Shown here in pieces: positions 15,001-21,000 of a stretch of DNA of 40,429 nucleotides. Every line of letters begins with the position of its first letter. Positions within the stretch are counted from its first letter, which is position 1. A program made the position numbers. The stretch covers positions 1 through 40,429 of the forward strand of contig CAYFGV010000005.1 of NCBI GenBank assembly GCA_964342845.1, in the 5' to 3' direction. This stretch comes from Candidatus Woesearchaeota archaeon (GTDB lineage Archaea > Nanobdellota > Nanobdellia > SCGC-AAA011-G17 > CAYFGV01).

Positions 15001-18000
15001 TCATAATGTCCGAAGTCCATGTCAACTTCTCCGCCATCATCTAATACAAAGACTTCCCCATGTTCGATTGGATTCATGGTTCCAGGGTCTACATTTAGGT
15101 ATCCATCTAGTTTTATTGGGACAACTTTGTAGTTTTCTGAGAGTAAGTGACCTATGCTGGCTGCGGCTATTCCCTTGCCTAATCCAGAAAGAACACCTCC
15201 AGTAACTATTATGAATTTAGGCATTCAAATTTTAAAAGGAAAAAGTATTAAAAGATATTGGGTTTCTAATTATTATGATGGATTATTCAGAAGATAAGTC
15301 TGGACTTGTATTTGAGGGGATGAAATGCTTGGCTTTTGTTTCTGGTGGGTTTTTGTTGAGGAGTATAGAAACTGAGATTGATCTGTTTGATAAGGGGTTG
15401 GATTTAGCAGGGATTTGTTGTATAGCTTATCCACTCAAGTATTTGCTGAGAGAACCTCTAATTTATAATAATTTAGTTAAGTTTTCTTATGGTATTGGGA
15501 AGTATTCAGGGGCTTAGTAAAGTATATAAAGGGTTTTGTAGTATTAATTTTTATGAAAAATGAATTAGTTAATGAATTTGAAGAGAAATTTTCTTTAATG
15601 AAAAAAGAGTTAGGTTTTAAGGCTAGCTTGGATGAGTTAGACGGAATATTCTTTATTAAGGATTTTGTTTTAGAGAAGAAGTTTGTTAGTGAAAAATTGT
15701 CTAGGATGGTTTGTGGTCGTATTTTAGATTTATATGGGAGTTGGATTAATTATTTACATGGGTTGATTATGCCTAATCCTAATTATTTGCCTGGTGTTAC
15801 TGAAAGTCAGATGTTTGATGATAAAGATGAGATAATGAAGATGTTGGAGAAGATTATGGCTTTGGTTAGTATGAATACTTTGGTTGGTTTGACTAAAGAT
15901 AGGAAGATGGAGAGTAAGTTTATAGATGATTCTGTTAAATTGTGGAAAGAGCTTAATCCTAAGTTGATTAAAATTTTAGAGAAAGTTAATAAAAATTGGG
16001 TTGAGAAGAGTAAATAGATTATCTTTTTTCTGTTCCATGAGGGTGATGGGTGTGTTTTTTGCTGGAATAATTTCCTTTCTTTTCTGTTTTTTCTACTTCT
16101 CTTTGGAATATATTGTATAGTTCTTTGGGTGTGTTTGCGTTTTTTACTTCGTCGTTTCTAGTTATCTCTGCTAGGTTTTCTAATACTAAGGCTTTATCTC
16201 CTGCAATAAGTGAGACATGATCTTTTTTATAAATACCATTTTTAAAAGTAAGGCCTTGAATATAATTAGCAGGAATTGCTATATTTTCACCTTCTTGGCG
16301 ATCAATTTGACTTCCTGGAATTCCTATTTTTCTTTTTATTCTTCTTTCTAAGTAAGATTCTTTAGTACTAATTATTAAATTTGGTTTTCCTACAGGGTAT
16401 CTTTTAATACTTAATTCTGGTTTTGATAATGTGCCAACTGTTGTTTCTGTAGATTCTGAGCTCATGTTGTAAGAAACTAAAAACCATTCTTTTCCTGAGA
16501 AATATGTCATTATGTTTGAAGCTAATTCTTCTAAAGGTTTTGGATCTTCTTGAGAGTGGAATATAGCCCAATCTTCTGGTGTTAGAAGTTCTTCTTGTTT
16601 TTCTAGGATGTGTTCTATTAGTCCTTGGCGTTTAATTTCTCTGTCGTCTTTTTTTCTTGCTAAAGATTCTTCTAATTCTTTTATACCTTCTAGTAAATCA
16701 TAATAAGCTTTTGATGGTGTATTCATAGTTTTTGAGTAAGTTAAGGTTTTATTTAAGAGTTTTTATTTATTTTGAGGATTTCTAGAGCGTTATTCATTGC
16801 TTGGAGGAGATAGTCTGATCTAATTTTAGGTCCTCTTTCTGTGTACATTATATTTTGTTTTGAGTTGTTGTGTGTTAATTTTGGAAGCTTCACATTATTT
16901 TTAGAGTATGTAACTCTTCCATCTTTGCTTAGAACTAATCTTTCTATGCCTCCTTCTCCATTTGTAGGTTCTACTTTAACCGAATTAGGTGTTATTGTTA
17001 CAGATACGCCATTGTATTTTATGGTTTTTTGATCTGATATTTCTGAGCAATAATCAGATAAAGGACATCTCATAATGTGATTCTCTTTTAAATAAGTTAT
17101 TTAAATAGTTTATTGTGATGTATTTTTTATTATGTAAAATATTTCATTATCTGTTTTAAAAGTTTTATGAGTATATTTTAATCTTTTAAGCATTTGTTCT
17201 AACCAACCTCTTTTTTGGGTTGTCATTTTTTTATTTTTTAGAGTTTTTAATGGAAAAGAGATTACTAAAAATTTAACTTTTAGATTTTTTATTATAAATT
17301 CTGTGTATTTTTTTGGTTTTTCTAGAGAATCTAAGAATTTGAACATTAGGCAGAGGTCTGCTTTTGGTAGTTTTAGAATATTTTTTTCTATTTGTAAGTC
17401 TAGGTTTTTAGCTTTTACATTTTTTAGATGTTTTTTAATTAAAGAAGTATCTAAGTCATATGCGTAGTAGGTTATGTTCTTTAAGTTTGTATATTTTAAT
17501 GAGAATGGGTTTAATCCGCAACCTAGGTCTATGATTGAATTTGGTTTTTTGGTGGTTTTGAAGATTTGTTTGTAAATATAAGGATAATCTTTTAGTCTTT
17601 CTTTTGTAGAGGAATGTGTTTCTAAAATGTTTTTTCCTTTTTTTTGGAACATTCCGTGGGCTAAATTTGCTTGTCTTCTTATTTCTTTTATGAAATCTTT
17701 GTATGTTTTAGATCTTTTTGAGTGTTCTTTAGAGAGAAAGCCTAATGTTTTTTTGTCTTTGGTTAAATTTTCTTTTATTTTTCTTTTTAAGAAGGATTTT
17801 TCTATGTTTTTAAGAGAAGGTTTTTTAGTTATATCTTCTATTATTTCTTTTTCATTTATTTTTTTGTTGTAGATTAGCATTTTCTTATTTTAGCTACAAA
17901 AAAGCCATCTGTATCATAATCTTGTGGCCAGATTCTTAAACATTTGTTTTTAATTTCTTTGTTGTCTGTTATAGGTTCAGAACCTTTTATATCTATTTTT

Positions 18001-21000
18001 TCTAATTTTGCGTTTTTATAGGTTTCTAATAAATTTTCAATTACTTTTTCGTTTTCATCTGGTTCTAAAGAGCAAGTTGAATAAACTAAGATTCCATTTT
18101 TTTTAAGATTTTGAAAAGCAACTTTAATTAATTGTCTTTGGATTCCTGCTAATTGTTTAACTAGGTTAACACTCCACTCTGTTGGTGTTGAAGGAGATTT
18201 TCTTATTATTCCTGTTCCTGAACAAGGTGCGTCTAATAGTACTCTATCTGCTTCTAGGTTTTTAAAAAATCTTCCGTGTTGCTTGGATATTATTGTGTTT
18301 AAAACTCCATTTCTTTGTAAATTAGTTGCTAGAGGTATTAATCTTTTTGTTGAAATATCATTTGCTATTATTAAGCCTGTATTTTTTGCTAAAGCTGCTA
18401 TTTGTGTTGTTTTTGAGCCAGGAGATGCTGCCATGTCTAATATTAATTGATTTTCTTTTATTTCTAGAACTTCTGGAGGTAGCATAGATGTAGAAGATTG
18501 GATGTAAATATATCCTAGTTGATGTTCTATTAGATTGCCTAGGTCTGTTTTTCCTTCTAAATAGAATCCTTGTTTACACCAGGGTGTTTGAGTTAGTTTA
18601 TATTTTTTTAATCTGTTTTTTATTTTTTTAATATCTGTTTTTAATGTGTTTACTCTGAATGATTTTCTCGGCGGCTTTTCACAGTATTTTATGAATTCTT
18701 TTAGATTAGTTAATTCTTTATAATGATCTAGGAAAGATTGTTTGAATTTTGGTTTTTTTAGCATAAAAGAGTTAGGTTTTANNNNNNNNNNNNNNNNNNN
18801 NNNNNNNNNNNNNNNNNNNNNNNNNNNNNNNNNNNNNNNNNNNNNNNNNNNNNNNNNNNNNNNNNNNNNNNNNNNNNNNNNTTCTTTTTTAAATTCTTCT
18901 GAAAATAAATTAGAATCTAATTCGTTAATTTGTTTTTTCCAGTTTATTTTAGGTAATTTAGTTAAATTGCTTGTTAGTTGTTTTCCTAAACTTTTTTGAA
19001 TGTATTTTGCTTGTTCTGAACCGAATAGTTTGGTTGCTGGGAATTTAGTGAATGCGTTTGCACCTGCTTGTATTAGTTCTGGAACTTCTTTGTATCTTCT
19101 TGCTGTTGTGCCTGCGATTATTTCTAAATTAGGAAATTCTTTTCTTGTTTGTTTTATCCACCAGAAATATTCTTTTTTAGGAGGACCATCTTTATTTTCA
19201 TATATAGTTGTTTTTATTGGTTTTAATGGGTAGAAAGTTATTCTGTTTAATTTATATTTTTTTATGAATTCTTTTAAAGTTTTGAAGTCTTCTTTTGTTT
19301 CTCCTAAGCCTATGATTATTGTTATACTTCTTTTTAGGTTTTTAGAGTTTTTGAACATTTCTTCATAGTTTTTAATTGGTTTATCTGGACAGATTTCAGA
19401 ATGAAGTTTTGTGTTTGTTGTCTCTATAGAAGAGACTATGCCTTTTATGTATGGTTTGAAAAGTTCTAAATCTTGTTTTTCAATTACTCCTAGATTTATC
19501 CATATCTTTTCTTTGTAGACTGAGGTTATTAATTTTAAGATGTTTTCTAATTCTTTTGGAGTGTATATCTTGTACCCTCCGGTTAAGAATTCTATTCTCC
19601 AGTTTAGGTTTTTACATAGAAGGGTTTCTACGATTAAAGAAGCTAAAGATCTTTTTGCTTTTTTTGGATGTTTTATTTTATGTTTTATTGTTGATCTATA
19701 ACAGAATTTACAAGTTCCTTTGTCGCAGTACCAACTAAGGAAAAGACATCTTCCGTACCAACAGTTAGATTTCATAAGATTTTTGGAGAATTAGACGTTT
19801 ATAAAGGATTTGAAATGTGTGAGCCGAGAGAATTTAATTCTGAAAGTAATTATTTAAGATAATCGATAAATTTATTAATAGGCTTTCATCTACAAAACTA
19901 ATGTAAATAAGGAGTGTAAGAATGAATAAAACATTATTTGTTATTTGTTTATTGGTAGGGGTTCTGTTTTTAACTGGATGTGGTTTAACAGGAAGCGCAA
20001 TTGTTGACCCTATAGAATATCAATGTGAAATTTGTGAAGAATGCCCAGAGGAAAAAGCATTAGTAACGGCAGGTTTTAGGGATTATTACTATAATGAATA
20101 CGACGAAGATGAGATACTAATTTATTTCAATGTTTATAACTATGGCTATGTTGAAGCCAAGCACATTTATGTAACATGCAAAGTTACAGACGCCAACGAT
20201 AGAGTTGTAGTCGAAGAAGAGAGATATGTCGGAAATCTGGCTTCTAATTCTGTGGATGTTGTATATATGGAAATACCAGATCCTTACGAAGATGACGACG
20301 AAGTTCTATATTTTTATTGTGAGGCTAGTGATTGCGTCGATTGTGAATTAATAGCTCAAAGATTTTCAATGTAAAACCTTTATTTCTTCTTTTTTCTAAA
20401 TAAGGGCTGTATATTTAACATTAGATTTAAATAACTGTTTACTTTCCTTATTGATTATGAAAAAACTTGCGAGATTTGATTTTACTTCAAATTCAATCAA
20501 TCAAGGAATGAGAGAAGGAGTTGAAGAAGCGGTTAGAAACCATCTTGTTTCACTAGTTCCTAGTATCGTAGATAGACAAGGAAAATTGCCTCCTTATATT
20601 ACTATGGAGGTTGGTTTTTATACAAATTTGATGGAAGAGGCTAGACGATGTTATGAATTTGGTTTATTTCATGCGACAGTTTCAATGATAGGGATAGCAG
20701 CAGAAAGATTTTGTATGGAACTGTCAGATTACTTAAAGTTTTTTGTAAATGAAAAACAAATCTCAGAAAAGGAGTTATATAATAAGGGATTTAACCACTA
20801 TAGGAGATTGTTATTTTTGCTGAAGGCGCAGTTAATTACAAAGGATACCTATAATCTTTTAGATGAAATTAGAACTATTAGGAATAAATACATTCACCCG
20901 TCTGAGATTGAAGATGTTGAAGAGGATGCGATAATTGTTATAAAAAAGTTTAATGAAATAATTAAATCAAGATTTTCTGAGAGGTATGAAATTAGAGAAG

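What a model noticed while it worked through the whole genome (the two positions that open the first line are those of the whole stretch)
17110..18764. Aminoglycoside-resistance-type 16S rRNA m7G1405 methyltransferase in an operon with an RsmF-like m5C methyltransferase
g00297 (C5:17110-17880) belongs to the FmrO/Rmt/Arm/Sgm family, enzymes that methylate N7 of G1405 in helix 44 of 16S rRNA. It overlaps by 7 nt with g00298 (C5:17874-18764), a homologue of RsmF, which in E. coli methylates the neighbouring C1407. The pair looks like a housekeeping module that doubly modifies the decoding centre of this archaeon's own rRNA. Among archaea the family is nearly confined to Nanobdellota, where it is far commoner than in bacteria, and its pairing with RsmF-type genes recurs in hundreds of genomes.
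Evidence so far: g00297: Pfam FmrO 3.9e-17; best Swiss-Prot hits RmtC, Grm, Sgm (26-36% identity); matches 8 distinct solved sequences of G1405 methyltransferases (best 1.6e-17) over aa 82-254. g00298: Methyltr_RsmF_N 1.6e-20 + Methyltr_RsmB-F 8.6e-58; 42% identity to RsmF, 45% to a Pyrococcus tRNA m5C enzyme. relatives.tsv, floors: FmrO in 135/239 genomes of the order, 775/1860 of the phylum, 797/10117 archaea (22/8257 outside the phylum), 0.9% of 189,785 bacteria. neighbours.tsv: FmrO and Methyltr_RsmF_N within two genes in 320 of 1177 genomes with both.
(Added by a program. Inside this text positions count along the whole contig: contig position 1 is position 1 of the stretch shown here. 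"Call 12" and the like, gene names such as g00115 and contig names such as C1 are that model's own, and its searches are not shown. The text may have been shortened before it was handed on; [...] marks where a part breaks off. The agent that wrote the report below was given it as the finding of a first reader that could run no searches.)

Follow-up and report, generated by a model that had tools for sequence, protein, structure and literature searches.

The report
Archaeal housekeeping cousin of resistance methylases
A tiny archaeon carries a relative of the enzymes that make bacteria resistant to gentamicin, but here it looks like an ordinary inherited ribosome-finishing enzyme whose exact target base is still unproven and may differ from the bacterial one.

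Summary
Both genes are real. 17110-17880 (-) is an Arm/Rmt-family methyltransferase along its whole fold (Sgm Z 23.0, rmsd 2.3 A) with SAM- and guanine-contacting residues intact. 17874-18764 (-) is an RsmF/NOP2-type m5C enzyme overlapping it by 7 nt. The family is in 177 of 300 high-quality phylum genomes, nearly always single-copy, and forms essentially one archaeal clade. Its usual neighbours are pelota and aIF1A-Rio1-Dim2. Housekeeping is therefore well supported. The nanoarchaeal homologue was already noted in 2010 and 2013. The 'module' is not supported in archaea: RsmF lies within two genes in only 4 of 186 loci, and it is near-universal regardless of FmrO. G1405 as target is uncertain. 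Docking residues essential in RmtC (K20, Y21, H54) are all replaced in 135 of 186 archaeal proteins, this one included. Published N. equitans mass spectra show RNase T1 cutting after G1405, which m7G1405 blocks, plus an unexplained mark at G1401. Verdict: new variant of a known family; target G1405 about 45%, G1401 about 25%.

The parts
17110..17880 (-). Arm/Rmt (FmrO)-family class I SAM-dependent m7G rRNA methyltransferase, 256 aa, helical N-terminal domain plus Rossmann catalytic domain
   Evidence: residue mapping
17874..18764 (-). NOL1/NOP2/Sun m5C RNA methyltransferase, 296 aa, YebU/RsmF-like type, both catalytic-motif cysteines present, no RsmF C-terminal domains; the only member of its family found in this assembly
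17874..17880 (-). 7-nt overlap of the m5C gene's end with the m7G gene's start (translational coupling inferred); same overlap length in G001
18783..18882 (.). 100-N scaffold gap immediately upstream of the pair
18885..19775 (-). radical SAM protein (PRK06267-like, just under cut-off), cut by the gap; not upstream of the pair in G001
16753..17073 (-). 106-aa ORF of no Pfam family, starts 36 nt after the m7G gene; not beside the pair in G001

Best explanation
The gene at 17110-17880 is this archaeon's member of an old, mostly vertically inherited Nanobdellota branch of the Arm/Rmt family. It most likely binds SAM, docks on a late small-subunit particle and N7-methylates a guanine at the top of helix 44 as a dispensable maturation step, not as acquired drug resistance. 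Shown here: fold, intact active site, distribution, clade, neighbourhoods, conserved candidate bases in relatives' 16S. Inferred: activity, substrate and target base. G1405 is the default (about 45%), G1401 the main alternative (about 25%), another site or no activity the rest. The upstream m5C enzyme is the phylum's near-universal YebU-like protein (16S C1407 about 50%; tRNA or 23S otherwise). The two became neighbours by local gene shuffling in this family and are probably co-translated, but they are not a conserved module.
For: Whole-length fold match to Sgm, RmtB, RmtF, RmtC, Z 16.8-23.0 against 15.0 for the next methyltransferase. RmtC Y60, K204, R111, S107, D160 kept as F78, K181, R95, S91, D142; across 186 archaeal proteins Y/F 185, K 182, R 185, S 182, D/E 186. 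Present in 177 of 300 genomes, one copy in all listed but G122; 144 of 201 in a second order. All 186 archaeal proteins on one side of a branch against 81 bacterial ones (FastTree 0.81); 51 of 52 at SH-aLRT 98; eight families each form their own clade. Neighbours within two ORFs on the same strand: pelota 22 loci in 10 families, KH Dim2/Pno1 16 in 4, Rio1 8, aIF1A 5. GC and GC3 within the range of other window genes. None found in viral contigs. G1405, C1407, A1408 and C1496 in 57 of 57 readable 16S genes, G001 included. RsmB/F family in 290 of 300 genomes.
Against: No activity was measured. K20, Y21 and H54, each needed by RmtC (10.1101/712810, PMC10054953), read S22, L23, N72 here; all three are kept in only 12 of 186 archaeal proteins against 77 of 81 bacterial. 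The h44-distorting loop is 1-2 residues shorter in 184 of 186. In N. equitans the RNase T1 fragment 1406-1410 was recovered (PMC5389701, section 13), which stoichiometric m7G1405 abolishes (PMC2760815). About 40% of high-quality genomes lack the gene, three single-contig ones included, and no h44 feature separates carriers from non-carriers. The bacterial outgroup lacks antibiotic-producer enzymes, and one archaeal protein (G303) falls outside the supported clade. This genome's own 16S is missing.
Confidence: 0.62

Rival explanations
1. One reading: a dedicated two-enzyme module that writes m7G1405 and m5C1407 together, kept as a unit by selection.
For: 7-nt overlap kept in G001; independent adjacency, in the reverse order, in G144 and G138, and near-adjacency in G252; all four adjacent partners belong to the YebU-like type, not to the second paralogue that is closer to archaeal PH1374/MJ0026; m5C1407 reported in N. 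equitans (PMC5389701); the two marks coexist in E. coli (PMC3923132, section 7).
Against: 4 of 186 loci; about one such case is expected by chance (my estimate: four neighbour slots, one to two RsmB/F genes, about 1000 genes); the m5C gene is in 290 of 300 genomes with or without FmrO; it lacks RsmF's C-terminal domains and scores below the RsmF cut-off (292 of 588); C1407 is unmodified in P. abyssi (PMC7005279, Table 4).
Confidence: 0.15
2. Retargeted enzyme: the archaeal branch kept the guanine-N7 chemistry but re-aimed it, most plausibly at G1401, four bases upstream at the P site.
For: In N. equitans fragments holding C1402 were missing, fragment 1406-1410 was present, and RiboMeth-seq gave ambiguity at G1401 that the authors read as a modified guanine with no enzyme assigned (PMC5389701, section 13). 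A T1 block at G1401 predicts that pattern (my inference). Active site conserved while the h45-docking and h44-distorting residues are systematically changed. The phylum's decoding region is itself altered: C at 1499 in 57 of 57, U at 1400 in 13 of 57.
Against: The chemistry of the G1401 mark is unknown and other modifications near C1402 could explain it. Partial m7G1405 would also release fragment 1406-1410. NEQ545 has a diverged N-terminal domain lacking one helix (PMC2896518) and may not represent this lineage; I had no named NEQ545 sequence to place in the tree. Twelve archaeal proteins keep the bacterial triad. N7 methylation of G1401 is recalled (not found in the library) to hinder P-site tRNA binding in E. 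coli.
Confidence: 0.25
3. True aminoglycoside protection: small host-associated archaea keep m7G1405 to resist 4,6-disubstituted aminoglycosides made by neighbours.
For: A1408, the drug-sensitive base in bacteria (recalled), in 57 of 57 16S genes; every characterised family member confers resistance (PMC2760815, PMC10054953); patchy presence.
Against: No mobile or resistance context among the common neighbours of 186 loci; deep, family-congruent tree; none of 57 16S genes has G at 1491, the base recalled to stack on the drug; non-carriers have the same A site.
Confidence: 0.08
4. The protein is a catalytically minor assembly factor that checks h44/h45 folding, standing in for KsgA/Dim1, which most of the phylum lacks.
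For: KsgA/Dim1 found in only 64 of 300 genomes; frequent position behind aIF1A-Rio1-Dim2.
Against: 47 of 64 KsgA-bearing genomes also carry it, against 130 of 236 without (hand count), the opposite of replacement; this genome has both; the active site is strictly conserved.
Confidence: 0.07

Closest known systems
Arm/Rmt/Kgm 16S rRNA m7G1405 methyltransferases (Sgm 3LCU, RmtB 3FRH, RmtC 6PQB/8GHU, ArmA 3FZG, RmtF 6PI9; Pfam PF07091, NCBIfam NF000466)
   Same: Two-domain fold over residues 8-253; SAM residues and guanine-positioning Y60/K204 equivalents; basic K47/R50 equivalents.
   Different: 22-30% identity; NF000466 score 126.7 against cut-off 250; K20/Y21/H54 replaced; conserved Pro at RmtC 207 is Asp/Glu in 178 of 186; loop 237-246 shorter; short N2 subdomain; chromosomal translation-gene context; bacterial environmental homologues sit by tgt (48 of 80 loci) and rsmI (11 of 80) instead.
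NEQ545 of Nanoarchaeum equitans and its Nst1 orthologue
   Same: Same family in the same phylum; called the first archaeal Arm orthologue, function unclear (PMC2896518 section 15), and a nanoarchaeal signature gene (PMC3655853).
   Different: NEQ545 lacks one N-terminal helix; this protein has the full domain. Those papers had one or two genomes; the spread across the phylum and the residue pattern were not found in print.
E. coli RsmF/YebU (m5C1407) and N. equitans NEQ536
   Same: Best solved match is YebU (E 7e-58); 39.5% identity over the catalytic part; NEQ536 was proposed for m5C1407 (PMC5389701).
   Different: 296 aa against 479, no C-terminal PUA region implicated in 30S binding (PMC13694986 passage); almost tied with P. 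horikoshii 1IXK (E 2e-56) and the tRNA C49 model (279 bits); passes only the broad nop2p model.

Membership tests
Arm/Rmt m7G1405 methyltransferases | Pfam FmrO above gathering score | tested here: met
   58.2 bits, cut-off 27
Arm/Rmt m7G1405 methyltransferases | NCBIfam Rmt equivalog NF000466 above cut-off | tested here: not met
   126.7 bits, cut-off 250
Arm/Rmt m7G1405 methyltransferases | Helical N-terminal domain plus class I Rossmann domain | tested here: met
   model pLDDT 92.4; Sgm Z 23.0, rmsd 2.3, 223 aligned, residues 8-253
Arm/Rmt m7G1405 methyltransferases | SAM-binding and guanine-positioning residues (RmtC Y60, H105, S107, R111, D160, K204) | tested here: met
   F78, H89, S91, R95, D142, K181
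Arm/Rmt m7G1405 methyltransferases | N1 docking and h45-shifting residues K20, Y21, H54 (R50 also) | tested here: not met
   S22, L23, N72; only R68 kept
Arm/Rmt m7G1405 methyltransferases | Loop 237-246 with K236, R241, M245 | tested here: inconclusive
   K212 and M219 kept; loop two residues shorter; R241 aligned to K217 and to a gap
Arm/Rmt m7G1405 methyltransferases | Target G1405:C1496 present in the host 16S rRNA | tested here: inconclusive
   own 16S absent; present in 57 of 57 relatives including G001
Arm/Rmt m7G1405 methyltransferases | Forms m7G1405 on 30S subunits and confers aminoglycoside resistance | not testable with these tools
   no assay; RNA runs held only as contigs; N. equitans spectra argue against full G1405 methylation there
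RsmF (16S m5C1407) | RsmB/NOP2 catalytic domain with two cysteines and RsmF_N domain | tested here: met
RsmF (16S m5C1407) | C-terminal domains and equivalog cut-off | tested here: not met
   296 aa matches RsmF 8-310 of 479; 292.5 of 588 bits
RsmF (16S m5C1407) | Methylates C1407 | not testable with these tools
   precedent only (PMC5389701)
Archaeal Trm4 tRNA m5C48/49 | NF040814 above cut-off | tested here: not met
   279 of 550 bits; a second paralogue closer to MJ0026/PH1374 exists in other phylum genomes but was not found here
Conserved FmrO-RsmF module | Adjacency recurring across lineages | tested here: not met
   4 of 186 handle loci, 0 of 80 named GTDB loci, 0 of 80 bacterial loci

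The most novel reading that the evidence does not exclude
Nanobdellota took up an Arm/Rmt enzyme once, near the base of the phylum, rebuilt its ribosome-docking face and re-aimed it from G1405 to G1401. It would then be the missing writer of the orphan G1401 modification of N. equitans, m7G1401 would be a small-subunit mark not described in the papers I saw, and a family known as drug-resistance enzymes would have a large housekeeping branch with a different target, matched to a phylum-wide altered P-site helix (C at 1499).
Probability: 0.25. Interest if true: 0.8.

Novelty: new variant of a known kind. Interest (0 to 1): 0.5.

Why it matters
Arm/Rmt enzymes are treated as resistance genes and databases label these archaeal proteins 'guanine(1405)-N(7)' by similarity alone. 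Hundreds of single-copy, inherited archaeal members show the family has a housekeeping life, which bears on where clinical 16S methylases came from and on false resistome calls in environmental metagenomes. It also offers a candidate enzyme for an unexplained G1401 modification in N. equitans, testable with one mapping experiment. The RsmF pairing itself matters little.

Tried and rejected
Own 16S: not found by Rfam or motif scan; assembly is 84.8% complete. Replacement of KsgA/Dim1: rejected by co-occurrence (kin are not independent, so the Fisher p of 0.01 overstates). Link of H54 or Y21 state to KsgA: no clear pattern. A 16S feature marking carriers: none (L264 and L294 left out as 5' fragments, G148 unreadable). 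Pfam false negatives: 1 real miss (G093) among 60 Pfam-negative genomes re-searched with the archaeal profile, nine weak hits near E 1e-4 taken as other methyltransferases. Viral copies: none among 75 pattern hits. Reverse-transcription signature at G1401/G1405: all 24 runs were contigs; four laid gave mixed organisms and no listed change at either base, 29 rows not shown; uninformative. Fusion with the radical SAM gene: artefact of the N gap. Promoter scan: 9 sites against 15.6 expected, nothing. Earlier scan notes: nothing returned.
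Full report
Observation. A run of 100 N at 18783-18882 separates them from a radical SAM gene, so the long ORF is an artefact and the start of the operon cannot be read. The first protein scores 58.2 bits on Pfam FmrO (cut-off 27) and 126.7 on the general Rmt model (cut-off 250); the second passes RsmB-F, RsmF_N and the broad nop2p model but not the RsmF or tRNA C49 models. 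All eight solved sequences that match the first protein are Arm/Rmt enzymes. No 16S gene was found in this 84.8% complete assembly.

Structure. A model built on 56 homologues has mean pLDDT 92.4. Foldseek ranks Arm/Rmt chains first; realignment gives Sgm Z 23.0, rmsd 2.3 A, 223 residues over model 8-253, with the best unrelated methyltransferase at Z 15.0.

Residues. I mapped RmtC residues whose roles are given in PMC10054953 (passages and section 7) and 10.1101/712810 (passages) onto 186 archaeal and 81 bacterial proteins (first pass). The chemistry is kept: Y60 is F or Y in 185 of 186, K204 in 182, R111 in 185, S107 in 182, D160 is D or E in 186; here F78, K181, R95, S91, D142. The recognition surface is not. 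K20 is Glu in 133 of 186, Y21 is Leu or Phe in 151, H54 is Arg in 132; 135 keep none of the three and 12 keep all, against 77 of 81 bacteria. This protein has S22, L23, N72. In RmtC, K20E abolished measurable 30S binding and H54 changes abolished activity. The loop that distorts h44 spans 12-13 residues between fixed anchors in 184 of 186 archaeal proteins and 14 in 78 of 81 bacterial ones. Either the surface adapted to an archaeal particle or the target moved.

Distribution and descent. FmrO was found in 22 of 40 relatives and 177 of 300 high-quality genomes of the phylum, one copy in all listed but G122, and in 0 of 14 controls. The archaeal profile found it in 144 of 201 genomes of a second order and recovered 1 miss among 60 Pfam-negative genomes; three single-contig genomes still lack it. 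Named records of close homologues are Woesearchaeota, Pacearchaeota and Nanoarchaeota. All 186 archaeal proteins fall on one side of a branch (support 0.81); in a 72-row tree 51 of 52 group at SH-aLRT 98, G303 unresolved. Eight families with three or more rows each form their own clade; f4, f42, f44 and f50 do not. The outgroup had four clinical enzymes and 77 metagenome proteins but no producer enzymes. GC and GC3 of both genes sit within the range of five other window genes. The tallies include unpublished genomes G265 and G266.

Neighbours. I read flanks for 119 loci of the phylum sample (20 with 1.5 kb, the rest about 3 kb, some cut by contig ends; I had positions for 149 of 178 carriers), 70 loci mostly of the second order (three shared) and 80 named GTDB loci at 5 kb (partly the same genomes). 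RsmF lay within two ORFs in 4 of 186 distinct handle loci: G000 and G001 (upstream, 7-nt overlap) and G144 and G138 (downstream); G252 has it three short ORFs away. It lay in 0 of 80 named loci and 0 of 80 bacterial metagenome loci. The common partners are pelota (22 loci, 10 families), a TrmB regulator with PheRS (19, 9), and the aIF1A-Rio1-KH Dim2/Pno1 cluster (KH 16, 4); in the second order a peptidase and a GTPase. This is a translation and small-subunit maturation context. The RsmB/F family is in 290 of 300 genomes whatever FmrO does.

The m5C partner. The phylum has two paralogue types. This one is closest to E. coli YebU (E 7e-58; 1IXK 2e-56; RsmF model 292.5 bits); the other is closer to 1IXK and MJ0026 and scores 203.9 on RsmF. 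All four adjacent partners are of the first type. N. equitans carries m5C1407 with NEQ536 as proposed enzyme (PMC5389701), P. abyssi does not (PMC7005279, Table 4 passage), and Thermococcus paralogues act on rRNA, tRNA and mRNA alike (PMC11344067, passages). C1407 is plausible, not shown.

The substrate. In 57 readable 16S genes of 58 examined (30 carriers, 27 non-carriers) G1405, U1406, C1407, A1408 and C1496 are invariant; all have C at 1499 where the Rfam archaeal consensus has A; 13 have U at 1400; none has G at 1491. Nothing splits carriers from non-carriers. KsgA/Dim1 was found in 64 of 300 genomes and fibrillarin in 222 of 300; this genome has KsgA but no fibrillarin hit.

Literature. 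Husain 2010 (PMC2896518; passages, section 15) named NEQ545 the first archaeal Arm orthologue and left its function open. Podar 2013 (PMC3655853; passages) listed it as a nanoarchaeal signature gene. Seistrup 2017 (PMC5389701; abstract, passages, sections 13 and 14, supplement text; figures not seen) recovered the N. equitans T1 fragment 1406-1410, did not see fragments holding C1402, and read ambiguity at G1401 as a modified guanine; the passages I saw do not discuss m7G or NEQ545. Savic 2009 (PMC2760815; passages) and Lioy 2014 (PMC3923132; abstract, section 7) show that m7G1405 blocks T1 and removes both flanking fragments. Putting these together is my inference: G1405 is not fully m7G in the one family-bearing archaeon examined, and a block at G1401 would fit. 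Partial methylation, a degenerate NEQ545 or another modification fit too. Searches for a phylum-wide treatment found none; the library lacks most subscription papers. PMC8204110 (passages) does not mention the family; PMC13694986 was seen as passages only.

Verdict. A real Arm/Rmt-family enzyme of a large archaeal housekeeping branch, known in outline since 2010 but not characterised. It works like an m7G small-subunit methyltransferase; it fails two membership tests for the G1405 equivalog. The pair is family-local. Target odds: G1405 about 45%, G1401 about 25%, other or inactive about 30%. Interest 0.5.

Noticed in passing
L235-L263, L265-L293 (16S 3' ends): All 57 readable Nanobdellota 16S genes have C at E. 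coli position 1499 (Rfam archaeal consensus A), inside the site of the usual 1492R primer (recalled); 13 have U at 1400.
   Followed up: partly
phylum sample: KsgA/Dim1 found in only 64 of 300 high-quality genomes; fibrillarin in 18 of 58 genomes of this order and not in G000. Loss of near-universal rRNA modifiers is far wider than N. equitans.
   Followed up: partly
L307-L386: Bacterial environmental Rmt homologues sit directly after tgt (48 of 80 loci), with rsmI (C1402 2'-O-methyltransferase) close by in 11; L308 and L381 hold two Rmt-like genes.
   Followed up: partly
window 12363-15224 (-): One 953-aa ORF fuses CTP synthase to PurD (GAR synthetase), upstream of guaB- and purA-like genes.
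   Followed up: partly
window 30430-32514 (+): Asparagine synthetase-like domain fused to a diphthamide synthase (Dph6) domain, 694 aa.
   Followed up: partly
window 8534-9559 (-): Kinase-like AAA domain fused to dCMP deaminase, 341 aa.
   Followed up: partly
window 38206-39350 (+): Two adjacent ORFs (249 and 105 aa) that by eye resemble halves of a diverged PRPP synthetase; no Pfam hit at 1e-5.
   Followed up: no
window 21114-21866 (+): Free-standing HTH plus LAGLIDADG protein near the nrdD-nrdG genes; no tRNA adjacent.
   Followed up: no
G000:C11:7076-8236: NMD3-like, aIF1A and KH genes in a row without Rio1; no Rio1 or pelota hit in this assembly.
   Followed up: no
L263 (G001), L260 (G258), L293 (G137): 16S matches of 2.2-3.0 kb, longer than the 1.47 kb norm, suggesting insertions or introns.
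   Followed up: no
G303:C41:241-858; G122 (two copies): G303's protein keeps the bacterial K-Y-H triad and falls outside the supported archaeal clade; G122 has two copies of different type.
   Followed up: partly
window 17087-17105: Perfect 9-bp AT-rich inverted repeat just after the m7G gene's stop codon, seen by eye.
   Followed up: no
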